This document shows, piece after piece, positions 2,558 to 20,716 of a stretch of 26,294 nucleotides of DNA (positions are counted from its first letter, which is position 1; the number at the start of each line of letters is the position of its first letter). The DNA comes from a virus (lineage: Duplodnaviria; Heunggongvirae; Uroviricota; Caudoviricetes). Below the pieces are notes generated by a model. It did not search any database, was not told the DNA's origin, and saw nothing but the letters and a program-made list of their open reading frames with translations. The translations under genes were made by a program, and so were the position numbers. The stretch is taken from positions 1 through 26,294 of the IMG/VR virus record IMGVR_UViG_2695420728_000009; one strand, written 5' to 3'.

Positions 2558-3348
2558 TTACGCCAGTTGTACGGACACGAACGCATCAGGGTCAGCCAGC
2601 AGCATCAGCGGTGCTGACTGAATCATGGTGAACTCACGCGCCGGATCGCCGGTGGTCACCCAGTTTTTCGGGTAGCGGGCAGAGGCGTTAATACCTTCGC
2701 GCTGTGCGTCCGCATCCTGAATGCAGCCATAGGTGCGCAGACCGCGTGCCTGAGAGTTCCCCAGCACCATCGTGTTGTCCGGAAGGAAGTTCTTTTTGAC
2801 GTCGTTTTCCACGTACTGTCCGGAATACACGACGATCGCCGTATCGCCATACATCCCCTTATAGGACACCGCTTCGCCCAGGTCTTTTACCGCTGTCTCC
2901 AGCTCGGAATTAGAGCCGCGACGGGTATCCAGCTTCTCCTTGACGGCTTTGAAGGAACGGAACAGCGCCCAGCCTTTCGGATCAAACACGATGATATTCA
3001 CCACTCCGCTGGCGTTCAGCGCATAGGCTTCGATATCGTCGGTCGGGTCATACGTGGACTTGTCACGCTTGCTCCACTCCGTACCACCGGACTGTGTGAT
3101 GTTGTTCGCCGCACTGCGGCCCATATCCACCTCAACCGGATCGAAGGCTTCACCGGTCATGGTGTATTTGCCCTTAAGCACAGCAGAAACTGCCTGCATC
3201 TCTTCGACCTGAGCAATGGCCAGCTCTTCGTCTCGCATGTTCTGCATGATGATGCGACGGCGGCGGTAAGCCGGGTCCGCCAGATTCTGCGGATCTTCAT
3301 CCGGCAGGCGACGCAGGGTCATCTGCGGATTCACCTCATGCTTCGGCT
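2558..3348 (-). pseudogene. E: 3' fragment of major capsid gene E (codon ~83 to native stop), separated from its 5' part by the inserted element
   Basis: Translation (V)NPQMTLRRLPDEDPQNLADPAYRRRR...FVSVQLA matches lambda gpE residues ~83-341. In-frame upstream codons give P-K-H-E-V and then a TAG at 3347..3349 where E should continue. The ORF caller's start is a GTG inside E. Confidence 0.9.
3339..3348. repeat. Left copy of the 10-bp direct repeat TGCTTCGGCT (attL-type core) at the element/E junction
   Basis: Exact 10-mer at 3339..3348 and 14528..14537, each precisely where E homology breaks; its reverse complement lies within the E codons K-P-K-H. Confidence 0.75.
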
Positions 3349-3424
3349 ACATGAGTCAAATATGAAAGGATGTGAATGATTTGATTACGTTTTAGCTATA
3401 GAATTGAAATGGAAAATCCTTGAA

Positions 3425-3445
3425 TGCAATACAACGTGCAATACA
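3425..3445 (+). promoter_or_regulatory. Tandem pair of TGCAATACA motifs (12-bp period) near the left end; candidate integrase arm-type sites
   Basis: TGCAATACA at 3425..3433 and 3437..3445. The same tandem pair in the same orientation occurs at 14380..14399 near the other end, between the int start and the right junction. Confidence 0.35.
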
Positions 3446-3482
3446 TGGATGAAAACCATCACTCATTTAACAAGAGGAATCT

Positions 3483-4388
3483 ATGCGCTCACCCAACAGA
3501 ATGCATGAACGCTCAACATTTTATAAGTATATGTCGTTGAATACCGCGAAGATTGTTCTTGATTCATGCAGCCTTAGATGGAGTTCTCCGGTCCTATTTA
3601 ATGACCCTTTTGATGTTCCAAGAGAAGTTATGCCTGGTATTAACGAAATTAATATTGGCAAAGCTTTAGCCCGCAAGTTAATAGCGGAGTTGATTACCCC
3701 CAGAGAAGACATACAAAATTTAAACCCTAGAATTAGAACAATGCTAAGTGATTTCCAAAAGTCATTTCCTTTAGGCATACCCGCAGGATTAATTGAAAGA
3801 TTTCAAGAAATGGTAAACATTCCACCAGTTGGGATTGGCGCTCCTGCGGCAATACAAGAAATGAAAGATGTCTGGCGAGGAATGCTTAATAACAGAAGGA
3901 TTTTGTGTTTATCTGAGAGCCCTATAATCACTCCTATGTGGAATCACTATGCCGATAAATATAAAGGTATAGTTATCGAATTGGATTGTGTAGACTTTCT
4001 GGATAGCGCTTGGTTAATAGCCAAACCTATGAAATACACAGATGAAATGCCTCTAACTCACACTGCTGAAGGGATGGCCGAGTTGCTTTTCATGCCAGAC
4101 AATAAGTCAATTGAATATATCAATAATGAGATAATATTCATAAAAACAGAAGAATGGGCATATGAAAGAGAGTGGAGAATTTCAACCTACGCTAGGCCAA
4201 ATAGCACTGGTCAATATAGCGACTTAAAATTTCACCCTTTTGAGTTAAAATCTGTAATACTTGGTCCTCTTTTTGATGCCAGCGAGTTCGATGAAGTCGC
4301 ATCACTAGTTAAAATGTATCCAAGAGCGAAATTATTTAAAAGTTCATTTGGGAACGACAGAAAAATATCCATAGTACCACTACCTTAA
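3483..4388 (+). CDS. DUF2971-like protein (function unknown), AT-rich cargo gene
   Basis: 301-aa ORF with N-terminal FYKY...LFNDPFD and C-terminal EREWR motifs that I recall as DUF2971 hallmarks. Markedly AT-rich relative to neighbours; convergent with the packaging module. Confidence 0.55.
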   Translation: MRSPNRMHERSTFYKYMSLNTAKIVLDSCSLRWSSPVLFNDPFDVPREVMPGINEINIGKALARKLIAELITPREDIQNLNPRIRTMLSDFQKSFPLGIPAGLIERFQEMVNIPPVGIGAPAAIQEMKDVWRGMLNNRRILCLSESPIITPMWNHYADKYKGIVIELDCVDFLDSAWLIAKPMKYTDEMPLTHTAEGMAELLFMPDNKSIEYINNEIIFIKTEEWAYEREWRISTYARPNSTGQYSDLKFHPFELKSVILGPLFDASEFDEVASLVKMYPRAKLFKSSFGNDRKISIVPLP

Positions 4389-4419
4389 AAGGTCAAATGC
4401 TTTTGACAAATAAAATCTA

Positions 4420-4445
4420 TCGCCAGTTTTACTGGCGACTTTTAA
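4420..4445. terminator. Hairpin between convergent genes (DUF2971-like and Nu1-like); likely bidirectional terminator
   Basis: TCGCCAGT-TTT-ACTGGCGA perfect 8-bp stem at 4420..4438 followed by CTTTTAA, with an A/T run on the other side. Confidence 0.5.
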
Positions 4446-4494
4446 GCAACAAAGAACCACCTAAGCACTCTTCCTACCTATGGTTTCATTTGTT

Positions 4495-5046
4495 TTAACT
4501 TCGCTGATTATCCTTGATATACCTTTCAGCCATATCTGGAATGTTATCTGAGATCTGGTAAGCTCGAATAAATGCTTTACTGACCTCCATCTTAATGAAG
4601 TCCTGATACCGTTTTTCCATGCCAGGAAACTGTCGACAGATCGCAAGTGGAAGACTATCAATGATTGCTCCAACTTCCCCAGTTAATTTCGACAAGGCAT
4701 AAGTCGCAAATGCAGTGTCAATTACCTCACCTGTTTCGCTGGCATTCTTCAGTTCCTGTGCGTCGGCCTGCGCACGCGTAAGTCGATGGCGTTCGTACTC
4801 AATAGTCCCTGGCTGGAGATCTGTCTCGCTGGCCTGCCGCAGTTCTTCAACTTCCCGGCGCAGCTTTTCGTTCTCAATTTCAGCATCCCTTTCGGCATAC
4901 CATCTTATAACGGCGGCAGAGTCATAAAGCACCTCATTACCCTTGCCACCGCCTCGCAGAACGGGCATTCCCTGTTCCTGCCAGTTCTGAATGGTACGGA
5001 TACTCGCACCGAAAATGTCAGCCAGCTGCTTTTTGTTGACTTCCAT
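4495..5046 (-). CDS. Satellite small terminase subunit, Nu1-like: N-terminal ~100 aa near-identical to helper Nu1, C-terminal domain diverged
   Basis: 183-aa translation MEVNKKQLADIFGASIRTIQNWQEQGMPVLRGGG... differs from the helper Nu1 (20171..20716) at 2 of the first ~100 residues, then diverges (NASETGEVIDTAF... versus NARDSAEVVETAF...). No large terminase gene follows. Confidence 0.85.
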   Translation of the reverse strand: MEVNKKQLADIFGASIRTIQNWQEQGMPVLRGGGKGNEVLYDSAAVIRWYAERDAEIENEKLRREVEELRQASETDLQPGTIEYERHRLTRAQADAQELKNASETGEVIDTAFATYALSKLTGEVGAIIDSLPLAICRQFPGMEKRYQDFIKMEVSKAFIRAYQISDNIPDMAERYIKDNQRS

Positions 5047-5270
5047 TGTTCATTCCACGGACAAAAACAGAGAAAGGAAACGACAGAGGCCAAAAAGCTC
5101 GCTTTCAGCACCTGTCGTTTCCTTTCTTTTCAGGGGGTATTTTAAATAAAAACATTAAGTTACGACGAAGAAGAACGGAAACGCCTTAAACCGGAAAATT
5201 TTCATAAATAGCGAAAATCCGCGCGCCTGACGCCCCGTAGCCTGTCAGATCGCCGGAAAGGACCCGCCAG
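5047..5270 (-). other. cos-like packaging site of the satellite: cosB copy with variant cosN
   Basis: 5047..5220 is identical to helper 20717..20890 apart from a single base in the R3 element. R-type TerS sites seen at 5071..5086, 5114..5129 and ~5192..5203. The cosN-equivalent 12-mer (5224..5235, CGCCTGACGCCC) differs from the helper's AGGTCGCCGCCC at 5 of 12 positions. Confidence 0.7.
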
Positions 5271-5291
5271 CCAGAGCGGGCCCTAATTTCA

Positions 5292-5675
5292 TCAACCAAT
5301 CAGCTTATAGCGACCATCCCGTGCATTGCGGCGTACACGCTCAATCTTGAGGCATAGCGCCGCATCTGGCTTTTTTGGGACAGGTACGCGGCAATATTCA
5401 GAAGCGCGAGGAATATTATTTATCCAGTCGATCACTTCACTTAAATACCAGGCCTTACGCCCTTCCGTAACCTGCACACGCTCCGGGAACTCTCCACTAG
5501 CCTCAAGGTTTAGCAGTGTACGCCGACTCAGGGTTGTAATTTCCATCACCTGATTCATATCAACAAGGCGCTCGCTTAAACACATTTTGTCAGCGATAGC
5601 TTTTAATTCCTCTACAGCTGGATTCGGGTACATCATTTCGGCAATTGGCTTAAGGTCATTGTAATCATTTTGCAT
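5292..5675 (-). CDS. AlpA/Xis-family HTH protein with N- and C-terminal extensions
   Basis: 127-aa ORF; core MNQVMEITTLSRRTLLNLEASGEFPERVQVTEGRKAWYLSEVIDWI matches the AlpA (MerR-like winged HTH) pattern. Ends 2 bp from the cos region. Confidence 0.55.
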   Translation of the reverse strand: MQNDYNDLKPIAEMMYPNPAVEELKAIADKMCLSERLVDMNQVMEITTLSRRTLLNLEASGEFPERVQVTEGRKAWYLSEVIDWINNIPRASEYCRVPVPKKPDAALCLKIERVRRNARDGRYKLIG

Positions 5676-5686
5676 TGTATCCCCCT

Positions 5687-6028
5687 TTACACACGAGCCA
5701 GCGGCTGAACAGAAATACCTGAGCCAACAAACGCTGCAATCTTTACTGACAGTTCTTTTACAGACTCAGGCCAGTTCAGAGCATCAACATTTAAGACACC
5801 TGTCTTATAGACCTGAGCCTGTGTTTTTTTCGCGGTGTCGATTTGTACAGCGGAAACATAAACCGCTTTACCTACGCTCGAACCATCCCATACCACCAGT
5901 GCACCTGTTGCATCTTCCTGCATCAGTGGCGTAAATGCAGGAATTACCCCTTTATTAGCTGAAAATATCCCCAGCGTAGTCACCAGTGCTTCAGTGCCAG
6001 CCATGAGTTCAGTGTAATGAGTAGCCAT
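5687..6028 (-). CDS. Head decoration protein, lambda gpD-like (diverged)
   Basis: 113-aa ORF; PLMQEDATGALVVWDGSS...YKTGVLNVDALNWPE...AAFVGSGISV aligns with lambda gp[19 protein letters not shown]...[15 protein letters not shown]...[10 protein letters not shown]. Confidence 0.75.
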   Translation of the reverse strand: MATHYTELMAGTEALVTTLGIFSANKGVIPAFTPLMQEDATGALVVWDGSSVGKAVYVSAVQIDTAKKTQAQVYKTGVLNVDALNWPESVKELSVKIAAFVGSGISVQPLARV

Positions 6029-6037
6029 TGCTCCCCC

Positions 6038-7084
6038 TTAGCCAATGCGAACGGTAACAAAACGATTGATGCGGGCCGGTATTGGCTGTGGTGCTGAATG
6101 TGTCTGCACATATTCAATAGCCGGATCACCAGGCACAATATAGTTTTTCGGTGCAAGTTCGGCTTTAGTCAGCCCCATTCGGATTAGCTCCGGATCCTGA
6201 ATACCGCCATAGGCGACAATCCCCTGAAGAGCCGTATTGCCAAGCACCATCAAATCAGGATCAAGGAAATGTTTTTCAGTTCCGTCCTCGTCGGTATAAC
6301 GCCCGCTGTAAACAACAATCGCAACATCGCCCATATATCCTTTAAAACTCACCGAATCACCAAGGTCTTTAAGGGCCGTTTCCAGTTCGGAATTAGAACC
6401 ACGACGGGTATCCAGAGCCTCTTTTATCGCTCTGAATGAACGGTATTTCTTCCATACATTACCGCCCATAATGATGATATTAGTGACGCCCTCACTAAAT
6501 TCTGCGTAGCTCTCAATATCATCATTTGGATCAAAAGTTTCTTTATCCTTACCTGACCACTCAGTACCGCCAGACTGAGTGATGATATTTTGTGGTTTAA
6601 TATTCCAGTCCAGCTCATAACGTTCAATACCATCGCCCTCAATGATATTTTTCCCCGTTGTGATTGCCTGAACGGCAAGCCATTCAATACGTGCACGAAT
6701 AGCTTTAGCTTGATTTACAATCGCCTGTTTAACTTTAATATTACGCGCCCCAAAAGCATTGTATTGCTCAGGTGATACACCAGCAGGGCGCACAGCTAAC
6801 TTATTTGGATCAATGCTGCTTTTCGGCTTCATATAGCCTGGACGAATTGTTTTTGATTCGTACCCTTCGTCACGTGAAACTTTACTACCCACCATAGGAG
6901 AACAAAACGCTGCAATTGGGATATTTGGATCGTCGATTGTATCAAGAATAATATCGCGCGATCCAAACATTACCGAGCGAGTAAAAAACAAACTGGTAAA
7001 CAACGCATTTAGTTGTTTTTGTACATCTACAGCATTAACCACCTGTACAAGCTGGGTAGGCGAATATAAATCAACCATACGCAT
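6038..7084 (-). CDS. Major capsid protein, lambda gpE-like (diverged; roughly half identical by eye in the C-terminal region)
   Basis: ORF 6038..7291 aligns with lambda gpE over most of its length (e.g. ITQSGGTEWSGKDKETFDPNDDIESYA... versus ITQSGGTEWSKRDKSTYDPTDDIEAYA...; TRRGSNSELETA in both). Start set at ATG 7082..7084 (MRMVDLY, matching lambda MSMYTT). Starts at 7078 or 7099 are also possible; the longer N-terminal extension has no homology. Confidence 0.85.
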   Translation of the reverse strand: MRMVDLYSPTQLVQVVNAVDVQKQLNALFTSLFFTRSVMFGSRDIILDTIDDPNIPIAAFCSPMVGSKVSRDEGYESKTIRPGYMKPKSSIDPNKLAVRPAGVSPEQYNAFGARNIKVKQAIVNQAKAIRARIEWLAVQAITTGKNIIEGDGIERYELDWNIKPQNIITQSGGTEWSGKDKETFDPNDDIESYAEFSEGVTNIIIMGGNVWKKYRSFRAIKEALDTRRGSNSELETALKDLGDSVSFKGYMGDVAIVVYSGRYTDEDGTEKHFLDPDLMVLGNTALQGIVAYGGIQDPELIRMGLTKAELAPKNYIVPGDPAIEYVQTHSAPQPIPARINRFVTVRIG

Positions 7085-7252
7085 CCTCTTTGCATTCATT
7101 AAAAATAATTGTGGATATATGCTATCACCGATATTTGTCATGCGAACACATGCAACCGAGTGCAATGTTGTATAAAGTTTTGGGGTGACAACTTCAGTGC
7201 GGACAATTAGTGTTAATATCTTCACTCCCTTTGGTCGGGATTTATGTAGCAT

Positions 7253-7283
7253 GCCGGAAAATTTATTTTTTCCGGCTTTTTTT
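7253..7283 (+). terminator. Strong hairpin followed by a T-tract, oriented antisense to the surrounding minus-strand operon
   Basis: GCCGGAAAA-TTTATT-TTTTCCGGC (9-bp stem) followed by TTTTTTT at 7277..7283. No plus-strand gene lies upstream, so its role is unclear. Confidence 0.4.
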
Positions 7284-7294
7284 ATTGGCAATAT

Positions 7295-7744
7295 TTAAAA
7301 CGGGATATCATCTCCCCATTGCTCATTATCTCCCTCTGGTGGCTGGCTTCCTTGCTGATCTGCCTGTTGTTTTGCTCTGTTCAGTGCGTCAGTAGCCTGC
7401 CCCTGTTGGCCTTTTTTGCCGCCCGGTCGCACCGATCGCGCACTGATTACGCTGTCTGCGATAACCTGCCAGCCCTGCCGCGTTTCGCCGTTCTGTCCAG
7501 TCCACTGGCTCATCTGCATGTTACCCGCCACGCTCAGGAGTTCGCCTTTGTGATGCTTTGCCAGCGCGTCGGCTTGTCTGCCAAACGCCAGGACAGATAA
7601 CCACAACGTCGCCAGACCGTCATCCGACTGACTGCAGGGCAGTGATACCGCCATACGCGCCAGCGTCATGGGGGTGCCCTTGCTGGTCTGTTTTGTCTGC
7701 GGGTCGTCCACCAACCGCCCGTAAACTGATATTTGCGCCGTCAT
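7295..7744 (-). CDS. ssb: Single-stranded DNA-binding protein (SSB)
   Basis: 149-aa ORF with OB-fold-like N-terminus, Gly/Gln-rich linker and the characteristic acidic C-terminal tail ...DDIPF. Confidence 0.85.
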   Translation of the reverse strand: MTAQISVYGRLVDDPQTKQTSKGTPMTLARMAVSLPCSQSDDGLATLWLSVLAFGRQADALAKHHKGELLSVAGNMQMSQWTGQNGETRQGWQVIADSVISARSVRPGGKKGQQGQATDALNRAKQQADQQGSQPPEGDNEQWGDDIPF

Positions 7745-7998
7745 GCTGCCTGCTCTCCGGACTTAATATTGATTGTTGTCACTTCCTCCGCTTCAGCAAT
7801 CTCCCGTTCGGTCAGCGTGGCAAAGTTTGCAGCCGCCGTTGTCATGAATGCGCTTATCAGTTCGGGATGTGCTTTCGCGTATCCTTCCCCGGCGTTGCGG
7901 TCTATTGCCTTAATCGCCACCCTTAGCCAGTGTTCAGCCATATCAAGGGCGCGGTAATGTGGCTTTATATGTTTGTTCAGTTTTCCTGATGTGTGCAT
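7741..7998 (-). CDS. Hypothetical protein (85 aa), translationally coupled to ssb
   Basis: ORF overlaps the ssb start by 4 nt in the same operon; no family recognised. Confidence 0.45.
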   Translation of the reverse strand: MHTSGKLNKHIKPHYRALDMAEHWLRVAIKAIDRNAGEGYAKAHPELISAFMTTAAANFATLTEREIAEAEEVTTINIKSGEQAA

Positions 7999-8043
7999 TT
8001 TTATTTTTACCCCCTCGTTTAAAAAGTTTTTTGTGCACCACCA

Positions 8044-8274
8044 CCTTGTCTACCTTGTCTACCTGATTAGTTATCAGGCCAGTAATGGCGCGGGTTTCAG
8101 GGAGGTAGACAGCCCCAAATAGCTGTCTACCTCATCTCTACCCGTCTCCTTACCTGTCTACAAAAATGGGTAGATAAGGTAGATAACAGGTAGACAGTGA
8201 AAAATAGTTATCTACCTGCATTAATACATTGAAATAAAAGTATTTTCTTTCAGTCAGGTAGACAAGGTAGATAA
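8044..8274. repeat. Iteron array, GGTAGA(C/T)A in both orientations (10 or more copies); putative satellite origin of replication
   Basis: Copies of TGTCTACC / GGTAGACA / GGTAGATA at ~8046, 8055, 8103, 8123, 8153, 8169, 8178, 8190, 8208, 8257 and 8266, in a non-coding stretch immediately 3' of the primase-helicase gene. Confidence 0.7.
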
Positions 8275-8287
8275 CCATTGCCATTTT

Positions 8288-10039
8288 TTATAAAAACGCA
8301 TCGCAATCATCAGTAGTCGTTGCGTTGGTCTGCGTGACTCCCTTAACTTTTCGCGTAATATATTCATATCCGTAAACTTTCGCCGCTGACCTCATAGCCT
8401 TTCCGAACTCATTCACGCTCAAACATTTCCCCTTTCCTGTGTATGCCATGAAGGCCATATAGACACGGTAAAGGCTGTTTCTGGTCGTGTACTTCACGGT
8501 GTCACCACCACCGCCCATCATTAGCCCACGAGCTTCCTCCAGAAACTCCAGCGCCGCGCAAAGCTCAACAACCGGATCCGTTTGCTGCTTTATTGCCAGA
8601 GCTTCATCACCGTCACGCTGTTCCAGTAATAAAGCCCGTGCCTTTTCAGGGGCAGCAAAATTAGCCAGCAAGCGGCGGATAATTACGGGGATTTCTGCCG
8701 CTATCTTTTCCGGTAATTCCTTGTCTTTTTCGTCCTCCCTTACAATGTTGTCGAACCGGAAAATCACCCGACGGCGTGACACACCTCCGGCCCGTTCGGT
8801 AAAGATCATCGGGTCGTTATTGGTTGCCAGTACCACCGCCCTTATTATCGTCGTGAATCGCTTCTCATATTTCGGGTTAATTTCAACGGGATCGCCTCCC
8901 GTGATTTTCTTGATGCCCGTGCCTTCCCCCGTATATTTCGGCTGATCGGCAAGGACGATAAGACGACTCCCGACAACCTGCGCGCGCCCTCCTGCATCAT
9001 CGAGTGATGTCATCTCCGCGCTTACGGTGTTCTGTTTGCCAGCAAGCAGGGTGGCAATATGGGTAAATGTACTCTTACCGCTTCCCCCGTCTCCGGTGGC
9101 CTCAATGAACATCTGCCAGTCGTAGCGGTTCGCCATAATCATGTATAACGCGGCACATATACGCATCATCTTACGCGGGTCTTTTCTTGCAGCATGTTCA
9201 AGCCATTTATGGAAATTTGGCGCATTATCGCGGATGTTTTCCCCTGCTACTGGTGGCGTGTACTCAATGCCATTGTGCGTGGTGCTCCAGTGCTCCGGCG
9301 AGTGCGGAGAAAATTCCCCCGTTTTCAGGTTAAGCACACCATTAGTGAACGGTAGCAAATCACCGGACGGCTCCCCCATGGGGTCGGCAATAACTTTTAA
9401 CGCTTCCACGGCGTTATTGATTACACGTTTGCTGAACGTGGCCCTGTGCTCTGAATAGATCGCCACCATTTCGCGGCTCAGCTCCATTGTGCTGACCGGA
9501 CACCATACCCCGCCGCGCCATACGTGGACGATTTCACTTTCTGCATGAACACACACACCATCAAAGCGATCGGCAAGTAGTTGTGCACGTTCACTGTCTG
9601 CCATCTGTGAAAGTTGCGCCTTTTGCTTCGTCGGAAGATTAAGCACCAGACTTTCCCCACGCTCGCATTCCTCTTTGAGTCGCGGCAACTGCTCGGATAA
9701 ATCCACTGGGCTGGTGTCAGTAATCCCCGCGTATTCGTGTACGGTCTTCACTCCAGCCACAGCCAGTAACGTAACAATCTGCGTCATGCTGTGCTCTGTG
9801 ATATGTCCTGCGCGGTAAACACGCACACACTGACGATCTTCATCAATGATCCGGTAATCGGTGATATTTTTCAGTTGCTCATCAGCCAGCACGACAGGCG
9901 GCACATCGTCGGCGGCAATATGTTTACCCGCCCATTCCCGCCACTCTTTCGCATGGCTCCACGCATCACTACCTGCAAAGATGATTACCTCTGTCAGTCT
10001 GTCGCGTGGCTGTTTTTTTAAGTTCGGTGCCAGTTTCAT
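8288..10039 (-). CDS. Replication initiation protein: primase-helicase (P4 alpha-like C-terminal / D5_N-SF3 helicase type)
   Basis: 583-aa ORF with Walker A EATGDGGSGKST and the overall pattern of phage/plasmid primase P4-family C-terminal domains; N-terminal region resembles a toprim-like domain. Confidence 0.85.
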   Translation of the reverse strand: MKLAPNLKKQPRDRLTEVIIFAGSDAWSHAKEWREWAGKHIAADDVPPVVLADEQLKNITDYRIIDEDRQCVRVYRAGHITEHSMTQIVTLLAVAGVKTVHEYAGITDTSPVDLSEQLPRLKEECERGESLVLNLPTKQKAQLSQMADSERAQLLADRFDGVCVHAESEIVHVWRGGVWCPVSTMELSREMVAIYSEHRATFSKRVINNAVEALKVIADPMGEPSGDLLPFTNGVLNLKTGEFSPHSPEHWSTTHNGIEYTPPVAGENIRDNAPNFHKWLEHAARKDPRKMMRICAALYMIMANRYDWQMFIEATGDGGSGKSTFTHIATLLAGKQNTVSAEMTSLDDAGGRAQVVGSRLIVLADQPKYTGEGTGIKKITGGDPVEINPKYEKRFTTIIRAVVLATNNDPMIFTERAGGVSRRRVIFRFDNIVREDEKDKELPEKIAAEIPVIIRRLLANFAAPEKARALLLEQRDGDEALAIKQQTDPVVELCAALEFLEEARGLMMGGGGDTVKYTTRNSLYRVYMAFMAYTGKGKCLSVNEFGKAMRSAAKVYGYEYITRKVKGVTQTNATTTDDCDAFL

Positions 10040-10335
10040 TTTTTGCCCCTGAATGCGTTAATCATGCTTTTCATTTTCTGGATGTTTCCCCGCGCTTTTT
10101 CCCTGCTGATGGGCTTACTGCGGGGTGCGGCATATACCAGGGAAAAATCACGCCGGAACTGATAAACAGGCATCACGCAGTCATAGCTATACCCCTCACG
10201 GCGGTAAGTGATGCGCCGTTCTGCCACGCCTTTAATCGTTACCGTGCCGCCGTATTTATCGCGGTAAATATCGCCGTTCATAAATTCAGGCCGAGCGGGG
10301 CCGCTGGCAATAAAGCCAGAATTTTTCATTTCCAT
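10036..10335 (-). CDS. Hypothetical protein (99 aa), coupled to the primase-helicase gene
   Basis: 4-nt overlap with the primase start, same strand; no family recognised. Confidence 0.5.
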   Translation of the reverse strand: MEMKNSGFIASGPARPEFMNGDIYRDKYGGTVTIKGVAERRITYRREGYSYDCVMPVYQFRRDFSLVYAAPRSKPISREKARGNIQKMKSMINAFRGKK

Positions 10336-10352
10336 ATTATTTATTCCTCGAC

Positions 10353-10574
10353 TTAACTCGACTTATTTGATAGCAGGGCACTATTTATTGCGTCATTGAG
10401 TTTTTCTGCTGATTCATCAATAAGTGACAACAGGCCATAAGCAATATTTGCATCTTCATTGTCATTTATGCAATCAAGCCACATATTTAATATTGCTTTT
10501 GCTGAATTATTTAAAGTTAATGAACTTTCTGCACATGCTAACAATTTAAAAAAGACTTCCCGTTCTGTATTCAT
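10353..10574 (-). CDS. Hypothetical small protein (73 aa), AT-rich
   Basis: Compact in-operon ORF; no recognisable motif. Confidence 0.4.
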   Translation of the reverse strand: MNTEREVFFKLLACAESSLTLNNSAKAILNMWLDCINDNEDANIAYGLLSLIDESAEKLNDAINSALLSNKSS

Positions 10575-10766
10575 TTAATCCCCCACCAGCTTACTTTCTT
10601 CCTCAATCAGGAAACTAGCGACACTTCCCGAAAGGCGCGCCAGTAGGCTCGCCAGCGCGGATATATCAGCATCTGTAATTTTGTTCGGGTATACCTCAAG
10701 AAGGCGGCAAATAATTTCTGTCTGGTGCGCACGTTCAGCGGCTTCGTGTAATGTGATTTCCTGCAT
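10575..10766 (-). CDS. Hypothetical small protein (63 aa)
   Basis: Abuts the neighbouring ORFs with no gap; no recognisable motif. Confidence 0.4.
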   Translation of the reverse strand: MQEITLHEAAERAHQTEIICRLLEVYPNKITDADISALASLLARLSGSVASFLIEEESKLVGD

Positions 10767-10951
10767 TAATGCACCTCTTTTAATTCATACACTGCTGAAA
10801 TAATGACTTGTGATAAGCCATATTCTGATGATTCGCTTCTCACCGCAGCAATAGCCGTCTGAACATTAACAGCCTTCACGTTCTGAGTGATACCAATTGT
10901 GTGGCCCAGTGGGTTAACAGCTCGGGCAAATACACGGAAGGTTTTAAGCAC
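10766..10951 (-). CDS. Hypothetical small protein (61 aa)
   Basis: Tightly packed in the same operon; no recognisable motif. Confidence 0.35.
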   Translation of the reverse strand: MLKTFRVFARAVNPLGHTIGITQNVKAVNVQTAIAAVRSESSEYGLSQVIISAVYELKEVH

Positions 10952-11207
10952 GGCACACCTCCTGACGAATACGGGCGGCGAATATCATCACGTAGCCAGT
11001 TGGGGATTGCTGGCGGGCTTCCTGTTCGCTGGCGGCCTCGATGTGTATTACGCGTGGTTGTGCGGTGCTCAGGGCGATAAAACGCCAGATGTATTTATTC
11101 AGGTTGTGCGAATCCCGCCCTTGCGGGTGTGTGGTATGATTTCTCATAGCTACCTCGATACTGTTGCTATCGTTGGTGGTTAGACGCCCTGTATGTGTTG
11201 CGAGCAC
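10944..11207 (-). CDS. Hypothetical protein (87 aa or shorter), first gene of the leftward operon
   Basis: ORF begins just downstream of the divergent promoter region 11208..11286; an internal start (MRNHTTHP...) is possible. Confidence 0.35.
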   Translation of the reverse strand: MLATHTGRLTTNDSNSIEVAMRNHTTHPQGRDSHNLNKYIWRFIALSTAQPRVIHIEAASEQEARQQSPTGYVMIFAARIRQEVCRA

Positions 11208-11243
11208 TGCAGGGCGTTGTTATATAGCAATAAAACATGATAA

Positions 11244-11286
11244 GGTGTGTACCTATCAAGAATCATACTAAGCAATAGGTACACAC
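11244..11286. promoter_or_regulatory. Perfect 12-bp inverted repeat (GTGTGTACCTAT ... ATAGGTACACAC) in the divergent promoter region; candidate operator
   Basis: Arms at 11245..11256 and 11275..11286 separated by 18 bp; the right arm ends at the ATG of the RHH gene and overlaps its ribosome-binding site. Confidence 0.45.
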
Positions 11287-11481
11287 ATGTCAACTATCAT
11301 TCAACGTGATAAACAACCGAAAGGTGCAGGTAAAGCACCAGCATTCCAAGTCCGTATTAACCCAGAATTAAAAGAACAAATGGTTAATGTCGCTGCCAAA
11401 GAAGGGATGAGCTTAGGTAACTGGCTAAAAGAACTGGCTCGTGCCGAACTAATAAAACAAGGAATAACACCTAAAGGCTGA
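11287..11481 (+). CDS. Small ribbon-helix-helix-like DNA-binding protein (YlcI/YnfO-like pattern)
   Basis: 64-aa ORF; FQVRINPELKEQMVNVAAKEGMSLGNWLKELARAEL fits a beta-strand-helix-helix (Arc/MetJ-like) pattern and resembles the helper moron 21105..21338 (IRFPNQMIEQINIALDQKGYGNFSAWVIEACRRRL). Confidence 0.55.
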   Translation: MSTIIQRDKQPKGAGKAPAFQVRINPELKEQMVNVAAKEGMSLGNWLKELARAELIKQGITPKG

Positions 11482-11504
11482 TAATTTGCATAAAGGATTC
11501 TTCT

Positions 11505-12854
11505 ATGACAACAAGTCACAAAATGCTAGAAATCAGTAAAGAACAATTTGATGTATTTTTCTATGGTCGTACACCATACGTAAAAACCTTTTCGGAGGAA
11601 ATCTGTTGGTTCAAATTTATAAAGGATGATGTCACGATCTTAGCAACAATTGTTTTTTGTAAAATAGATAATGATTACAACGCTATATTTCTAGGTAGGG
11701 ATTTAGATAAAAAATTTAGAGCGATTAAAGTAATTGTATCCCGTGAATCTAAAGATGATTTAATTACTGATATGGAAAAAGCCATACCAGAGCTATTATC
11801 ACTACACAAGAACGGTTGTTTTATACAGGGTGACGAATCAGAGTCGGCATTTTCAATATTCCTAGCCAAAGTTCCAGAACATAAAAAAAACGTTTATCTA
11901 AGAATGCTACTTGAGGAACCCAAACACTATCCTGCATTTATTGTTATGCAAGAGTTAGCTTATTGGTGTAAAGATCCTGATGGAATATTCATCAGAGATT
12001 TCCAGAGTGCTTCATTTAACTCTCGCTTATTCGAACTTTATCTAAACGCAGTTTTCTACGAAATGGATTTCGTAATATGCAGAGATTATGCTCAACCTGA
12101 TTATATTATCTCAAAAAATGGCATTGATATTGCTGTAGAAGCTGCCACAGTTGCAGAACAAGAGGAACCTACCGAGAAATTGATACTTGATCATGAGGCA
12201 GTAGAAGATCTTCAGAGATATGTAAAAGAACAAATGCCATTCAAATTTGCCCGCACTCTATTAAAGAAAGTTAGGCATAAACCTGAACCCTTAAAATTAT
12301 GCTATTGGGAACTAGATCATACAAAAGGAAAGCCTTTCATTATTGCTTTACACGATTACTCACGCAGATTTTCGATGAGTATATCAATGCCAGCACTACA
12401 AAGCTATCTGTATGGTGTAGATATGGATTCTGGAAGTAAAATTGAACAACATTTATTTGAAAATCGAAGTATACAATCTAATTTTTTCGGCTCTAATAAA
12501 AATGAGAATGTCTCAGCCATATTACTTGCGACACATGCCACCATCCCAAAATTTGATAGGATGGGAGTAGTGGCAGGGATTGAACAAAAAAATGTCAAAT
12601 CCATCGTTAGAGGTATTAAAACTGATGAAGGCTGTACCCCAATGCCTTTTACTGCTCTTGTCAATGCACCTTCATATCAAGAACCATGGTGTACAGCAAT
12701 ATACATGTTTCATAATCCGAAGGCATTAAATCCTATACGCCCTGAATTATTCCCAAGAGTTATTCATATTTTTGAAGAAGATGGAGAAATAGTTCAATAC
12801 TTACCACCTAATTATATAATCTCATCAACTACGCACGTATTTGAATTTAAGTGA
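11505..12854 (+). CDS. Large unknown protein (449 aa), AT-rich cargo; candidate defence or toxin effector
   Basis: Long clean ORF 23 bp downstream of the RHH gene; very low GC compared with flanking satellite genes. No family recognised by eye; a weak PD-(D/E)xK-like stretch (QPDYIISKNGIDIAVEAA) is noted without confidence. Confidence 0.7.
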   Translation: MTTSHKMLEISKEQFDVFFYGRTPYVKTFSEEICWFKFIKDDVTILATIVFCKIDNDYNAIFLGRDLDKKFRAIKVIVSRESKDDLITDMEKAIPELLSLHKNGCFIQGDESESAFSIFLAKVPEHKKNVYLRMLLEEPKHYPAFIVMQELAYWCKDPDGIFIRDFQSASFNSRLFELYLNAVFYEMDFVICRDYAQPDYIISKNGIDIAVEAATVAEQEEPTEKLILDHEAVEDLQRYVKEQMPFKFARTLLKKVRHKPEPLKLCYWELDHTKGKPFIIALHDYSRRFSMSISMPALQSYLYGVDMDSGSKIEQHLFENRSIQSNFFGSNKNENVSAILLATHATIPKFDRMGVVAGIEQKNVKSIVRGIKTDEGCTPMPFTALVNAPSYQEPWCTAIYMFHNPKALNPIRPELFPRVIHIFEEDGEIVQYLPPNYIISSTTHVFEFK

Positions 12855-12859
12855 TTTCA

Positions 12860-12886
12860 AATCCTATGGGTTTACCCCATAGGATT
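12860..12886. terminator. 11-bp perfect-stem hairpin between convergent genes (449-aa cargo and alpA)
   Basis: AATCCTATGGG-TTTA-CCCATAGGATT at 12860..12886, 6 bp after the cargo stop codon. Confidence 0.5.
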
Positions 12887-12905
12887 ACATCCACTGTCTA
12901 AATTC

Positions 12906-13127
12906 TTACCACTCTCCCCTAATCCATGCCTGCACTTCTGAAAGACGATATGCAACAGCAGTGGAACCAATCTTGATCCGCTTAGGAAATTTTCCTTCCT
13001 TCTCCAGCTTCCAGCGTGTGCTGTTCGCAAGAGTGGTTAGCTCCCGACATTCTTTCTCACGGATCATACGATCGATATTAGGAATGTACTCCAGACCCTT
13101 TTTATCGACAATTGCCATTTTTTTCAT
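12906..13127 (-). CDS. alpA: AlpA-family transcriptional regulator / excisionase-like protein
   Basis: 73-aa ORF; RELTTLANSTRWKLEKEGKFPKRIKIGSTAVAYRLSEVQAWI matches the AlpA HTH signature; immediately downstream of int on the same strand. Confidence 0.85.
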   Translation of the reverse strand: MKKMAIVDKKGLEYIPNIDRMIREKECRELTTLANSTRWKLEKEGKFPKRIKIGSTAVAYRLSEVQAWIRGEW

Positions 13128-13128
13128 G

Positions 13129-14364
13129 TTAACCAGCCTTTTGTTTGAGGATTGTCACTTTTGAATCAGCACCTGCGATGCTATTGAGATATGTAGTCCA
13201 GAGTTCCAGAGCATCCAGTTTTTTAGCCATAAACTTACTCCGGTTGTAAACACCTGCCACGCCAGGTAGCGCATGGCCTAACAGTTGTTCTACTACATAA
13301 AATTCAACACCGAGATCACTTAGATGAGTAGATAGCGTTCTTCTAAGGTCGTGTAGTGACCATTGTTTTTCATGGCCCAAACGTTTACCGATTTTCCCCC
13401 CAATCTTGCTTACGCTTTCTCTAATTCGCAGACTTCCCAGCACATAACCAGTATGTTTTGTCTCTTCGTGAACATCCGTTACCCACTGTCGTAGAATTTC
13501 AGGTACTGGTCTGACGATTTCAACACCAGTTTTTGAGTGATCTTTTGGTACAGTCCAAACCCAACTTTCGAGATCCCATTCGCTCCATTCTGATAATCGG
13601 GCTTCACTCATTCGACATCCAAATACTGTACAAAGCACAAACATTTTTCGCGTGTATTCAGACATTAGTTTTAAATCAGGCTCGACAAAAATTGCCTTCC
13701 AGAGCTGGCCGAGTTCGGCTTCATCCAGAACCCGATCCCGCTTACCTGCAATCTGCCCCACATCACTCATGCGCAAATCCTTTAAAGCATCACACGTCGC
13801 GTACTGGCGTACCCGACAAAAACGAAGAGCTAATTTAGTGTCAGAAAAAACATACGCCGCCATAACTGGTGCATTACGTTTAATTCGGTCAAAACAGTCC
13901 AGCCATTCATATAGGTGAGTGTCATTTACGGGCAAATGACCGATATAGGGAAAGATATGCTTTCGAAATCTGCCAAGCGTTACAGCATGAGTTTTACGAC
14001 GCACCTTACAGTAATTTTCATACCAGTAATTTAGTGCATCCTCCACTGTGACCGGCTTTAAGCGTTCTTCAGCCTGAATCTTAATCTGGATACGCGGATC
14101 ACGTTTGTCAGCCAACCAACCACGGCACTCGTCGCGCTTTTCCCTTGCCTGTTTGAGTGACATATCAGGATATTTACCCAACGTTAGCCAGACCGGAGCA
14201 GCCCGGCCACCTGCTAACCTGTAGAAGAAAACAAAGCTCACAGCCCCTTTAGTACTCACACGAATAGAAAGCCCCTTTCCATCAGCAATGGTGATCTGCT
14301 TTTCTCTGGGTTTCCCCAGATATCCTTTAAGCGCTTTGTCGCTCAGTTTGTTCTCGCCAGCCAT
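13129..14364 (-). CDS. int: Tyrosine site-specific integrase (P4-type)
   Basis: N-terminus MAGENKLSDKALKGYLGKPREKQITIADGKGLSIRVSTKG... typical of the P4-integrase N-terminal domain; C-terminal catalytic region with HDLRRT and LLGH motifs and a Tyr-containing tail. Start set at ATG 14362..14364; the 17 upstream codons are extension. Confidence 0.9.
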   Translation of the reverse strand: MAGENKLSDKALKGYLGKPREKQITIADGKGLSIRVSTKGAVSFVFFYRLAGGRAAPVWLTLGKYPDMSLKQAREKRDECRGWLADKRDPRIQIKIQAEERLKPVTVEDALNYWYENYCKVRRKTHAVTLGRFRKHIFPYIGHLPVNDTHLYEWLDCFDRIKRNAPVMAAYVFSDTKLALRFCRVRQYATCDALKDLRMSDVGQIAGKRDRVLDEAELGQLWKAIFVEPDLKLMSEYTRKMFVLCTVFGCRMSEARLSEWSEWDLESWVWTVPKDHSKTGVEIVRPVPEILRQWVTDVHEETKHTGYVLGSLRIRESVSKIGGKIGKRLGHEKQWSLHDLRRTLSTHLSDLGVEFYVVEQLLGHALPGVAGVYNRSKFMAKKLDALELWTTYLNSIAGADSKVTILKQKAG

Positions 14365-14379
14365 TTTTAGCCCCAAAAA

Positions 14380-14399
14380 GCAATACAAGCTGCAATACA
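14380..14399 (+). promoter_or_regulatory. Second tandem pair of GCAATACA motifs (12-bp period); candidate integrase arm-type sites / int promoter region
   Basis: GCAATACA at 14380..14387 and TGCAATACA at 14391..14399; same motif, spacing and orientation as the pair at 3425..3445. Confidence 0.35.
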
Positions 14400-14526
14400 G
14401 AGATGATTGCAACACACAGATAACGAGGAAAATTCAGTGAAAGCACCAGATAAACTTATTCTTTATTATCAAAAGATTAAGTGTAAAAACCAGCAACTAC
14501 ACGAAAGCCTCAGAAAGCCATGCTAA

Positions 14527-14772
14527 GTGCTTCGGCTTGACATATCCCGGTGTAAATTCAGAGGTGGAGCCGCCACGGGAGCGGATAACCTCACCGGAAA
14601 CAATCGGCGAAACGTACAGCGCCATGTTTACCAGTCCCGGAATTTGTGAGAGATAGACTTTCTCCGTGGTGAAGGGATAGCTCTCACGGAAAAAGAGACG
14701 CAGAAACAGCGGATCAAACTTAAATTTCTTCTCATTTGCCGCCAGCAGCTGGGCGGTTGTGTACATCGACAT
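14527..14772 (-). pseudogene. E: 5' fragment of major capsid gene E (codons 1-82), truncated by the element
   Basis: From ATG 14770..14772: MSMYTTAQLLAANEKKFKFDPLFLRLFFRESYPFTTEKVYLSQIPGLVNMALYVSPIVSGEVIRSRGGSTSEFTPGYVKPKH matches the lambda gpE N-terminus, then reads into element sequence (LAWLSEAFV, stop at 14497). Confidence 0.9.
14528..14537. repeat. Right copy of the 10-bp direct repeat TGCTTCGGCT (attR-type core)
   Basis: Exact match to 3339..3348; E homology ends at 14527. Confidence 0.75.
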
Positions 14773-16489: not shown

Positions 16490-20170
<3,681 letters not shown>

Positions 20171-20196
<26 letters not shown>

Positions 20197-20716
20197 TCAG
20201 CAACCCCGGTATCAGTTCATCCAGCGCGGCTGCTTTGTTCATGGCTTTGATGATATCCCGTTTCAGGAAATCAACATGTCGGTTTTCCAGTTCCGGAAAA
20301 CGCCGCTGCACCGACAGGGGGATCCCGTCGAGAATACTGGCAATTTCACCTGCGATCCGCGACAACACGAAAGTACAGAATGCGGTTTCCACCACTTCAG
20401 CGGAGTCTCTGGCATTCTTCAGTTCCTGTGCGTCGGCCTGCGCACGCGTAAGTCGATGGCGTTCGTACTCAATAGTCCCTGGCTGGAGATCTGCCTCGCT
20501 GGCCTGCCGCAGTTCTTCAACCTCCCGGCGCAGCTTTTCGTTCTCAATTTCAGCATCCCTTTCGGCATACCATTTTATGACGGCGGCAGAGTCATAAAGC
20601 ACCTCATTACCCTTGCCACCGCCTCGCAGAACGGGCATTCCCTGTTCCTGCCAGTTCTGAATGGTACGGATACTCGCACCGAAAATGTCAGCCAGCTGCT
20701 TTTTGTTGACTTCCAT
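20171..20716 (-). CDS. Nu1: Terminase small subunit Nu1 (helper copy)
   Basis: 181-aa translation matches lambda Nu1 throughout (MEVNKKQLADIFGASIRTIQNWQEQGMPVLRGGGKGNEVLYDSAAVIKWYAERD...SEYIEQSG). Confidence 0.95.

What the first reader, a model, noticed from the sequence alone, without database searches (positions are those of the whole stretch)
4495..5270. ~480-bp near-identical block shared by satellite and helper: cosB plus the 5' half of Nu1, giving a chimeric satellite small terminase
Seen in sequence: 4741..5220 is almost base-for-base identical to 20411..20890 (a handful of mismatches), covering the first ~100 codons of Nu1 and all of cosB; flanking sequence on both sides is homologous but clearly diverged. 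The satellite TerS therefore has the helper's DNA-binding N-terminal domain (2 substitutions) fused to a diverged C-terminal domain, which in lambda Nu1 is the region that contacts gpA. The satellite has no large terminase. Inference: a recent recombination captured the helper packaging-recognition module, allowing the satellite to recruit the helper's gpA to its own DNA. The shared block is also a substrate for homologous recombination between the two sites, 15.67 kb apart in direct orientation.
Basis: partly seen in the sequence, partly recalled or inferred. Interest (0 to 1): 0.8.

Follow-up and report, generated by a model that had tools for sequence, protein, structure and literature searches.

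The report
Swappable cos/terminase cassette in embedded satellite
A small phage satellite lodged inside its helper prophage's capsid gene carries a near-exact copy of the helper's DNA-packaging signal and the front half of its small terminase gene; comparison with related copies shows that satellites and helpers trade this segment repeatedly by recombination.

Summary
Window 4740-5223 matches 20410-20893 at 478/484 bases, in direct orientation 15,670 bp apart. Homology continues through a variant cosN (7/12) to 2 bp past cosQ (5267) and then stops.

The element is a known kind: a helper-embedded PICI ("11capE" type). It sits in lambda-like gene E, and precise excision restores a 341-aa gpE.

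What is not in the papers I read is the packaging module. The satellite TerS (183 aa, intact here) is a true mosaic:
- Codons 1-102 are helper/lambda type, with 2 substitutions.
- The C-terminal 82 residues are 39% identical to helper Nu1 and 68-70% identical to Klebsiella relic genes whose N-parts are satellite-type.

Fourteen other satellite/helper pairs are 0-1 nt different from the window in the flanks but vary inside the block, in mosaic tracts running in both directions. One satellite carries a phage-21-type cassette that matches its 21-type helper.

The block is therefore a packaging-specificity cassette exchanged between two conserved anchors. Exchange with the resident helper itself is not proven: it is the best match by only one mismatch.

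Whether the chimeric TerS is needed is doubtful. Seven of 15 copies carry W22*, and some relatives have lambda cosB but no terS.

The parts
4495..5046 (-). Satellite small terminase TerS' (183 aa, intact). It is a chimera of a helper-type N-part and a satellite-lineage C-part.
   Evidence: Pfam Phage_Nu1 E 3.6e-84. Residues 1-98 match the lambda TerS chain 6hn7_B. Translation.
4740..5046 (-). TerS' codons 1-102: winged-HTH DNA-binding domain plus coiled-coil. 303/307 nt identical to helper Nu1.
   Evidence: The 2 aa differences are K48R and A74T.
4495..4739 (-). TerS' C-part (82 aa plus stop), of satellite lineage. 49% nt and 39% aa identity to helper Nu1; 68-70% aa identity to Klebsiella relic genes.
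   Evidence: The family's conserved C-part motifs are retained. dN/dS is about 0.31 against Klebsiella L015.
4740..4833 (.). Left recombination anchor. It encodes residues about 71-102, including AQADAQELKNA, and is conserved among lambda-type helpers, 21-type helpers and satellites.
   Evidence: Alignment. The L006 crossover maps between 4814 and 4834.
5047..5223 (.). Satellite cosB (lambda bp 13-189), 175/177 identical to the helper. R3 5171-5186, R2 5112-5127, R1 5071-5086.
   Evidence: R-site definitions from PMC9026076.
5224..5235 (.). Satellite cosN' allele (cohesive end 5'-GGGCGTCAGGCG), 5 of 12 bases different from the helper.
   Evidence: Present in 14 of 15 satellites and in 19 IMG/VR contigs, including lambda-like prophages.
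5236..5267 (.). cosN-cosQ spacer and cosQ (AGGACCC, 5259-5265). This is the right anchor; homology to the helper ends at 5267.
4419..4439 (-). Terminator-like hairpin after TerS', between the convergent TerS' and DUF2971 genes.
20171..20716 (-). Helper Nu1 (181 aa).
20717..20937 (.). Helper cos: cosB 20717-20893, cosN 20894-20905 (GGGCGGCGACCT), cosQ 20929-20935.
18271..20196 (-). Helper large terminase gpA (641 aa), the only TerL in the window.
   Evidence: RefSeq annotation of the homologous loci.
3339..14537 (-). The helper-embedded satellite (11,189 bp per unit), bounded by the 10-bp att core TGCTTCGGCT at 3339-3348 and 14528-14537 inside helper gene E.
   Evidence: precise excision restores a 341-aa gpE. 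Gene content.

Best explanation
The block is a packaging-specificity cassette: cosQ, cosN, cosB and codons 1-102 of a Nu1-type small terminase. A helper-embedded PICI satellite shares it with lambda-like helper phages and exchanges it with them by homologous recombination or gene conversion.

Two conserved anchors flank the variable core (cosB plus the DNA-binding domain):
- Left anchor: the stretch encoding residues about 71-102, ending in AQADAQELKNA (window 4740-4833).
- Right anchor: cos bp 1-41 plus cosQ (about 5195-5267).

Ancestrally the satellite lineage had its own Nu1-family TerS and its own cosB. In this sub-family the front half and cosB were replaced by lambda-type sequence, which created a chimeric TerS'. 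In the window's lineage the cassette was refreshed again, so that it now lies within helper diversity (98.8% to the resident helper).

Inferred functional consequence: the excised, replicated satellite presents a cos that any lambda-specificity DNA-binding domain can recognise, whether that domain belongs to the helper's Nu1 or to the satellite's TerS'. Helper gpA, the only large terminase present, can then nick it and package it. The chimeric TerS' arises because the left anchor lies inside the gene. It may still dock gpA through its conserved C-terminal motifs, but it appears dispensable once cosB mimics the helper.
For: Shown:
1. Sharp identity steps at 4739/4740 and 5267/5268.
2. In 14 further E. 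coli satellite/helper pairs, satellites are 0-1 nt different from the window in 4495-4739 and 5268-5400, but 2-23 nt different inside the block. The probability that 27 differences all fall in the block is about 3e-8 (my calculation from the counts).
3. Twenty-five diagnostic sites show tract-like mosaics. W and L004 are fully helper-type across 4795-5220, L012 and L003 are partly converted, and helpers L001 and L003 carry satellite-type alleles.
4. The L006 satellite carries a phage-21-type DNA-binding domain, 21-type cosB and helper-type cosN that match its own 21-type helper. The crossovers map to 4814-4834 and 5230-5240.
5. The window's cosB is 98-99% identical to many lambda-like phages. 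The common satellite haplotype reaches at most 94.4% identity to any phage.
6. Sister satellites with the same cosQ-cosN' show other module states: a fully divergent TerS with a non-lambda cosB (9 contigs), or lambda cosB with no terS (L022).
7. The C-part's nearest relatives are Klebsiella relics with a satellite-type N-part.
8. W22* is present in 7 of 15 copies.

Inferred from established knowledge (PMC9026076):
- The lambda TerS DNA-binding domain binds the R sites.
- The C-terminal ~40 aa are proposed there to bind TerL.
- TerL nicking has little sequence specificity when TerL is anchored by TerS at cosB.
Against: - No experiment shows that this satellite is packaged at all. The published induction of the 11capE prototype gave excision but no plaques.
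- The resident helper is the nearest donor by only one mismatch, so local exchange is not proven for the window itself.
- The satellite's cosN differs from the helper's at 5 of 12 positions, and cleavage by this helper's gpA is assumed. The only support is that lambda-like prophage contigs with 98-100% identical Nu1 and 99-100% identical A carry the same allele.
- The 15 copies are not phylogenetically independent. L005, L009, L011 and L014 are near-clonal.
- The intact TerS' in the window could be functionally important rather than a by-product.
Confidence: 0.7

Rival explanations
1. The chimeric TerS' is an adaptive, required adaptor. Its helper-type DNA-binding domain binds the satellite's lambda-type cosB, and its satellite-type C-part recruits helper gpA, perhaps better than Nu1 does or in separate oligomers. 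This would give the satellite its own packaging holoenzyme.
For: - TerS' is intact in the window and in 8 of 15 copies. All 8 intact copies have a DNA-binding-domain type that matches the resident helper.
- The C-part keeps the family-wide conserved motifs: QELKN, T.F, LS, D..PL...R..P and the tail P....Y.
- dN/dS is about 0.31 against the Klebsiella homologue.
- Sister satellites carry a complete divergent TerS without any TerL, so satellite TerS acting on helper gpA is the family's apparent habit.
Against: - W22* is present in 7 of 15 copies, and terS-less relatives with lambda cosB exist.
- With an identical cosB, TerS' cannot discriminate satellite DNA from helper DNA.
- The C-part is only 39% identical to Nu1. 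Lambda/21 hybrid work is cited in PMC6739421; the classical finding that TerS C-termini are specific for their own TerL is from my own knowledge.
- The match of DNA-binding-domain type in intact copies follows automatically, because the domain and cosB transfer together.
Confidence: 0.3
2. Interference model. TerS' is a decoy that occupies the helper's cosB through the identical DNA-binding domain but engages gpA poorly, which reduces helper packaging.
For: The DNA-binding domain is identical and the C-part is divergent. Known PICIs block helper packaging at the TerS step through Rpp (PMC6739421).
Against: The satellite's own cosB is the same sequence, so a decoy would block the satellite equally. 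There is no second recognition system: the HTH protein next to cos is AlpA-like and not similar to the crystallised RppC. The nonsense alleles are common.
Confidence: 0.08
3. Ordinary conservation. The N-part and cosB are simply the slowly evolving part of a vertically inherited satellite gene, with no exchange with helpers.
For: Lambda-type cosB and the Nu1 N-part are highly conserved among many lambdoid phages.
Against: - Nucleotide identity steps from 98.8% to 49% at a single point. Helpers keep both halves conserved: 0-10 of 245 differences in the C-part.
- Satellites that are identical in the flanks differ in the block in tract-like mosaics, and one has the 21-type cassette.
- Sister satellites have an unrelated cosB and N-part.
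Confidence: 0.02

Closest known systems
Helper-embedded PICI (HE-PICI / HES) '11capE' of E. coli NRG857c (Tommasini, Mageeney & Williams; bioRxiv 10.1101/2022.07.18.500453; NAR Genom Bioinform 2023, PMC10111431)
   Same: - About 11-kb element with int, AlpA, primase, SSB, a major-capsid homologue and a decoration homologue.
- Integrated in and co-oriented with lambda-like gene E at the same codon, with a 10-bp att core.
- Shares a cos-like stretch with its helper.
   Different: The papers state that 11capE lacks terS and shares only 258 bp at 90% identity with the helper's cos. The window's variant has a 528-bp shared block at 97.5% (98.8% excluding cosN and the spacer) and a full-length chimeric Nu1-type terS. 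Neither version of the paper mentions cassette exchange, the 21-type swap or the cosN' allele in my term searches.
EcCICFT073-type Gram-negative PICIs with Rpp (Fillol-Salom 2018, PMC6092414; 2019, PMC6739421; Murialdo & Feiss 2022, PMC9026076)
   Same: - Lambda/phi80-dependent cos satellites with lambda-like cosQ and cosN.
- They carry capsid and decoration homologues.
- They depend on the helper's TerL.
   Different: Those PICIs have a completely different cosB. They use Rpp, which heterodimerises with the helper's TerS, to retarget packaging. Here cosB is the helper's own and a TerS chimera is encoded. No homologue of the crystallised RppC was detected for the HTH gene next to cos.
Laboratory lambda/21 hybrid terminases and the cosB specificity domains of Nu1/gp1 (Feiss laboratory; Frackman et al. 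1985, cited in PMC6739421)
   Same: The N-terminal domain with its matching cosB behaves as one specificity unit, separable from the C-terminal TerL-binding half. Natural helpers here show the same swap: a 21-like N-part and cosB joined to a lambda-type C-part.
   Different: Those were engineered or selected phage hybrids. Here the swap happens naturally between a satellite and its helper, and the C-half is of a satellite lineage with no cognate TerL.
cos-site mimicry by SaPIbov5 and by P4 (which shares its cos with P2), and SaPI-encoded TerS
   Same: The satellite carries the helper's packaging signal (SaPIbov5, P4) or its own TerS that works with the helper's TerL (SaPI1, SaPIbov1). SaPIbov5 also encodes a capsid homologue, Ccm (mentioned in PMC6092414).
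   Different: These have different protein families and hosts. None is described as a helper-N/satellite-C TerS chimera kept in register by recombination with a helper it sits inside. The statements about P4/P2 and SaPI TerS come from my own knowledge.

Membership tests
Helper-embedded PICI (HE-PICI, site E:Phage_cap_E:80) | [quoted passage not shown] | tested here: met
   The 10-bp core TGCTTCGGCT lies at 3339-3348 and 14528-14537. In-silico excision gives a 341-aa gpE. All satellite core genes are on the same strand as the helper's late genes.
Helper-embedded PICI (HE-PICI, site E:Phage_cap_E:80) | PICI gene set: tyrosine integrase, AlpA, primase/replication zone, late zone with captured capsid-type genes | tested here: met
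   int (PF00589, PF13356), AlpA-like HTH proteins, D5_N/DUF5906 primase, SSB, Phage_cap_E homologue, HDPD decoration homologue. RefSeq annotation of 14 homologous loci agrees.
Helper-embedded PICI (HE-PICI, site E:Phage_cap_E:80) | Integrase belongs to the specific phylogenetic clade defined by Tommasini et al. | not tested
   No integrase phylogeny was made. The same site and the same 10-bp core length as published make membership likely.
Lambda Nu1-family small terminase (Pfam PF07471) | Full-length match to the Phage_Nu1 profile with an N-terminal winged-HTH domain | tested here: met
   PF07471 E 3.6e-84 over residues 1-162. Residues 1-98 are 96/98 identical to PDB 6hn7_B, and 1j9i also matches.
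Lambda Nu1-family small terminase (Pfam PF07471) | Encoded next to, and working with, a cognate gpA-type large terminase | tested here: not met
   The satellite has no TerL. The only gpA is the helper's, 13 kb away. Binding of the TerS' C-part to gpA cannot be tested with these tools.
Lambda-type cos site | cosQ, cosN and cosB (R3-I1-R2-R1) at lambda spacing | tested here: met
   cosQ 5259-5265. R3, R2 and R1 are exact lambda sequences at bp 50-65, 109-124 and 150-165. I1 was not separately identified.
Lambda-type cos site | Canonical cohesive end GGGCGGCGACCT | tested here: not met
   The satellite has GGGCGTCAGGCG. G1-G5, C7 and C11 are kept. The same allele occurs in lambda-like prophage contigs.
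Rpp-type packaging redirection (EcCICFT073 family) | Encodes an Rpp protein, and the PICI cosB is unrelated to the helper's cosB | tested here: not met
   cosB is 175/177 identical to the helper. The 127-aa HTH protein next to cos matches only AlpA (8c3t), and no Rpp chain appears at E <= 0.01. Other small ORFs were scanned only against NCBIfam.
Capsid-forming PICI (cf-PICI) | Encodes a complete capsid and packaging set (portal, protease, TerL, TerS, connectors) | tested here: not met
   Only major-capsid, decoration and TerS homologues are present.

The most novel reading that the evidence does not exclude
Embedded satellites and their lambda-like helpers evolve in concert at a shared, modular packaging cassette, and the traffic runs both ways. 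Satellites track switches in helper specificity (lambda to 21) by swapping the DNA-binding domain and cosB as one unit. Satellites also act as a reservoir that feeds new alleles, such as the cosN' cohesive end and N-part variants, back into helper phages. The satellite-lineage C-terminal half is kept through every swap because it builds a satellite-specific holoenzyme with helper gpA. That would make this a third strategy for hijacking lambda packaging, alongside Rpp retargeting and plain cos mimicry.
Probability: 0.25. Interest if true: 0.75.

Novelty: new variant of a known kind. Interest (0 to 1): 0.6.

Why it matters
Packaging specificity decides which DNA leaves the cell in a phage particle. 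Known lambda-dependent satellites either retarget the helper's TerS with Rpp or are assumed simply to carry a cos site.

This locus and its relatives show a natural series of states in one satellite family:
- own TerS and own cosB;
- helper cosB with a chimeric TerS;
- a nonsense allele of that TerS;
- helper cosB with no terS;
- a lambda-to-21 specificity swap.

The series gives a concrete, testable picture of how a parasite embedded in its host virus keeps its packaging signal matched to that virus by recombination. It also reproduces in nature the domain boundary that lambda/21 hybrid genetics defined decades ago.

Cohesive-end sequences (cosN alleles) are polymorphic and move between satellites and phages. 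This matters for predicting which phages can mobilise which islands, and these islands carry defence genes such as PD-T7-1 here.

Tried and rejected
- Rpp hypothesis for the 127-aa HTH gene upstream of cos'. The PDB sequence search found only AlpA (8c3t) and no Rpp chain. NCBIfam gave nothing. Not pursued structurally.
- A donor phage lineage for the C-part. tblastn against 50,697 phage records gave nothing above 43% identity. A search of 1.84 billion representative proteins gave only the satellite cluster and the Klebsiella relics above 50%.
- The Klebsiella 113-132-aa 'short TerS' proteins as a DBD-less functional class. Upstream reading frames show they are 5'-truncated relics; the in-frame GREAFYDVASV... 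continues upstream before stops. Rejected.
- Selection keeping cosN' despite flanking conversion. This is not required. The cosQ-side spacer is multi-allelic in satellites and phages, and a donor carrying cosN' exists among lambda-like prophages.
- Association of W22* with a mismatched helper type: 4/4 mismatched against 3/11 matched. The four mismatched pairs are near-clonal, so there is no statistical weight.
- The deletion product predicted from crossover between the two direct repeats. It was not found among the loci fetched. L008 shows a different deletion, helper A fused to satellite D'.
- Literature searches for chimeric TerS or cos exchange in PICIs and HE-PICIs found no description.
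Full report
**1. Observation**

The window holds the late region of a lambda-like prophage on the minus strand. Reading down from 796, it runs V, U, Z, FII, FI and then the E C-terminal fragment. Further on come the E N-terminal fragment, D, C/Nu3, B, W, A 18271-20196, Nu1 20171-20716, cos, and lysis genes beyond. An 11,189-bp element interrupts this region.

A repeat search finds one long direct repeat with a spacing of 15,670 bp. In register:
- 4740-5223 equals 20410-20893 at 478 of 484 positions.
- To the left, identity falls at once to 49%, although the sequence still encodes a Nu1-family C-terminal half.
- To the right come cosN (7/12 identical), a spacer and cosQ (30/32). Homology ends completely at 5267/5268, and the next 133 nt are 24% identical.

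The block is therefore the entire lambda-type cos plus codons 1-102 of the small terminase. Its parts are cosQ 5259-5265, cosN 5224-5235, R3 5171-5186, R2 5112-5127 and R1 5071-5086. One correction applies: only the left flank is "homologous but diverged".

**2. What the element is**

The inserted element is bounded by a 10-bp direct repeat, TGCTTCGGCT, at 3339-3348 and 14528-14537. Removing it in silico rebuilds a 341-aa gpE.

It encodes:
- a tyrosine integrase and two AlpA-type HTH proteins;
- an Icd-like protein;
- a D5_N/DUF5906 primase and SSB;
- a Phage_cap_E major-capsid homologue and an HDPD decoration homologue;
- the Nu1-family TerS';
- a DUF2971 protein;
- a cargo gene matching the PD-T7-1 defence protein.

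It has no portal, no protease and no large terminase.

This is the "helper-embedded satellite / HE-PICI" described by Tommasini, Mageeney and Williams. Their prototype, 11capE, sits at the same codon of gene E with a 10-bp identity block, and they found 201 such elements. HE-PICIs are close relatives of the lambda/phi80-dependent PICI EcCICFT073, which also carries capsid and decoration homologues. The satellite/helper framing is therefore right, and the element type is already known. Those authors state that 11capE lacks terS and shares 258 bp at 90% identity with the helper's cos.

**3. The TerS' chimera**

TerS' (4495-5046, 183 aa, no stop or frameshift) matches Pfam Phage_Nu1 over residues 1-162. 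Residues 1-98 are almost identical to the crystallised lambda TerS N-terminal domain (6hn7_B).

- Up to A102 it differs from helper Nu1 by K48R and A74T only.
- After the motif AQADAQELKNA, the remaining 82 residues are 39% identical to helper Nu1.
- No phage among 50,697 records has this C-part above 43% identity.
- Among 1.84 billion representative proteins, only the satellite's own cluster and a Klebsiella cluster exceed 50%.
- The Klebsiella genes are 66-76% identical in the aligned part (68-70% for P0002 and P0003 over the full C-part) and are 5'-truncated relics. What remains of their N-part (GREAFYDVASV...NRV..GDIDD.ELL) resembles the TerS of sister satellites rather than lambda Nu1. 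In L015 the relic sits next to the same convergent DUF2971 gene.

The C-part is therefore a satellite TerS lineage, not a decayed copy of the helper's. It retains the family-wide conserved C-part motifs, and its dN/dS against the Klebsiella copy is about 0.31.

**4. Population comparison: the key evidence**

The satellite-specific C-half occurs in 32 of 5,426 complete E. coli genomes, always at 99.7% identity or more. I fetched 14 of these loci. Every one has the satellite inside gene E of a lambda-like prophage.

Aligning the 1-kb region from all 15 satellites and their 15 helpers gives the following:
- Satellites differ from the window by 0-1 nt in 4495-4739 and by 0 nt in 5268-5400.
- Inside 4740-5223 they differ by 2-23 nt, or 157 nt in one case.
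- Helpers come in two cassette types that share the same C-half. One is lambda-type. The other is 86% identical in protein to the phage 21 gp1 N-part.
- The two helper types diverge only between about 4834 and about 5190, which covers codons 1-70 plus cosB. The stretches 4740-4833 and about 5195-5267 are conserved in all sequences and form natural recombination anchors.

Twenty-five sites distinguish the commonest satellite haplotype from the commonest helper haplotype, and they show tract-like mosaics:
- The window and L004 are helper-type at every informative site from 4795 to 5220 (one site carries a third allele).
- L012 is helper-type from 4975 to 5205.
- L003 is patchy.
- Helper L001 carries satellite-type alleles at its left end and shares the rare S72C allele with its own satellite; like most satellites it also has L77 where other helpers have Q77.
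- Helper L003 is also patchy.

The L006 satellite carries the 21-type DNA-binding domain, 21-type cosB and helper-type cosN, matching its own 21-type helper. The crossovers are confined to 4814-4834 and 5230-5240.

The window's cosB is 98-99% identical to many lambda-like phages. The common satellite haplotype reaches at most 94.4% identity to any phage. That agrees with the published "90%" figure and shows that the window's lineage has a freshly replaced cassette.

The resident helper is the closest helper in my sample, but only by 6 mismatches against 7-9 for others. The donor cannot be named.

**5. Sister architectures**

Scanning IMG/VR for the satellite's cosN' with its flanks gave 19 contigs:
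- Three satellites have the chimeric TerS'. Two of them are identical to the window.
- Nine satellites share cosQ and cosN' but have an unrelated cosB and a fully divergent 183-aa Nu1-family TerS. That TerS is 34-36% identical to both Nu1 and TerS' overall, and 40% in the C-part.
- L022 is a satellite with lambda-type cosB ending about 15 bp before where Nu1 would start, and it has no terS. L033 looks similar. L027 also has a lambda-type cosB, but its contig ends 37 nt into the Nu1-like start, so whether it has a terS is unknown.
- Four are lambda-like prophage contexts carrying cosN'. Where the genes are on the contig (L019, L031, L036), Nu1 is 98-100% and A 99-100% identical to the window's helper; L031 also has an intact E. 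L023 ends within cosB.

So cosN' is not private to satellites, and lambda-type terminase presumably cuts it. A chromosomal PICI (L037) shows a third cosN allele and a TerS whose N-part is 21/lambda-like (66-74%) while its C-part is like the divergent satellite TerS (70%). That is another discontinuity at the same ELKN junction.

**6. How it most likely works**

Shown: the block is a recombining cassette bounded by conserved anchors. The chimeric TerS exists because the left anchor lies inside the gene.

Inferred: after the composite excises and replicates and the satellite excises (Tommasini et al. observed this for 11capE), satellite concatemers present a cos whose cosB is the helper's. Established lambda biology says that the TerS DNA-binding domain bound at R3 and R2 anchors TerL, and that TerL's nicking is not very sequence-specific (PMC9026076). 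Helper Nu1-gpA, or TerS'-gpA, could therefore initiate at cos'. Four satellite units total 44.8 kb, about 92% of the lambda genome, so a tetramer would fill a lambda head. EcCICFT073 is also packaged as multimers.

Whether TerS' is needed is doubtful:
- Seven of 15 copies carry the same W22* nonsense codon.
- terS-less relatives with lambda cosB exist.
- An identical cosB gives TerS' no basis for discriminating satellite DNA from helper DNA.

These points fit a trajectory from own TerS and cosB, to captured helper cosB with a chimeric TerS, to a redundant TerS that decays. In the window the gene is intact, and its C-part has the conserved family motifs.

**7. Novelty and verdict**

Already known:
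- the element type and its embedding in gene E;
- cos-dependent PICIs;
- the separability of the TerS N and C domains (lambda/21 hybrids).

Not found in the literature I could search:
- Nu1-family terS genes in capE HE-PICIs;
- the helper-N/satellite-C chimera;
- bidirectional cassette exchange with the helper, including a lambda-to-21 specificity swap;
- the shared cosN' allele.

I rate this a new variant of a known kind, with interest about 0.6.

**Limits**

There is no functional data. The 15 copies are partly clonal. The donor of the window's cassette is unresolved. Cleavage of cosN' by this particular helper is assumed.

Noticed in passing
window 11287-12854 (+): A low-GC cargo module inside the satellite. 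The 449-aa protein matches the PD-T7-1 anti-phage defence protein (PADLOC E 1.3e-153) and is preceded by a 64-aa ORF. Other copies of the satellite carry different cargo here, which explains the 85% coverage. A similar pair of about 450 aa and 64 aa lies next to the TerS relic in Klebsiella L016 and L017.
   Followed up: partly
window 3483-4388 (+): The DUF2971 protein, convergent with TerS', matches the PADLOC candidate defence family PDC-S31 (E 3e-31). In Klebsiella L015 the same pairing of a TerS fragment with DUF2971 lies beside OLD-family/UvrD (Gabija-like) genes.
   Followed up: partly
window 5224-5235 vs 20894-20905; loci L019, L023, L031, L036, L037: cosN is polymorphic. The satellite allele GGGCGTCAGGCG also occurs in lambda-like prophage contigs with three different upstream contexts. 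A PICI (L037) has a third allele, GGGCGGCAGACG. Positions 1-5, 7 and 11 are invariant. Helper and satellite cohesive ends in this window would not anneal to each other.
   Followed up: partly
loci L002, L005, L008, L009, L011, L013, L014 (equivalent of window 4982): The same TGG-to-TAG change (W22*) truncates TerS' in 7 of 15 satellite copies. All four satellites sitting in 21-type helpers while keeping a lambda-type cassette carry it.
   Followed up: yes
locus L008 (NZ_AP027632.1, Qin-like prophage): A deletion fuses the first 267 nt of helper gene A to a remnant of the satellite decoration gene. It removes the helper head genes and most of the satellite, and illustrates decay of the composite.
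   Followed up: no
window 2856-2960 vs 6339-6443: A second direct repeat (75% identity) reflects homology between helper gene E and the satellite's own major-capsid homologue. The proteins are about 45-47% identical, and the decoration proteins about 37-41%.
   Followed up: partly
window 20853 (helper R3, lambda bp 53): The helper's R3 carries a private C-to-T change, while the satellite's R3 is the canonical lambda sequence. The change lies outside the bp 55-63 core contacted by TerS.
   Followed up: no
helpers in L001 and L002 (equivalent of window 20905): These helpers have A instead of G at cohesive-end position 1 (AGGCGGCGACCT), another natural cosN variant.
   Followed up: no
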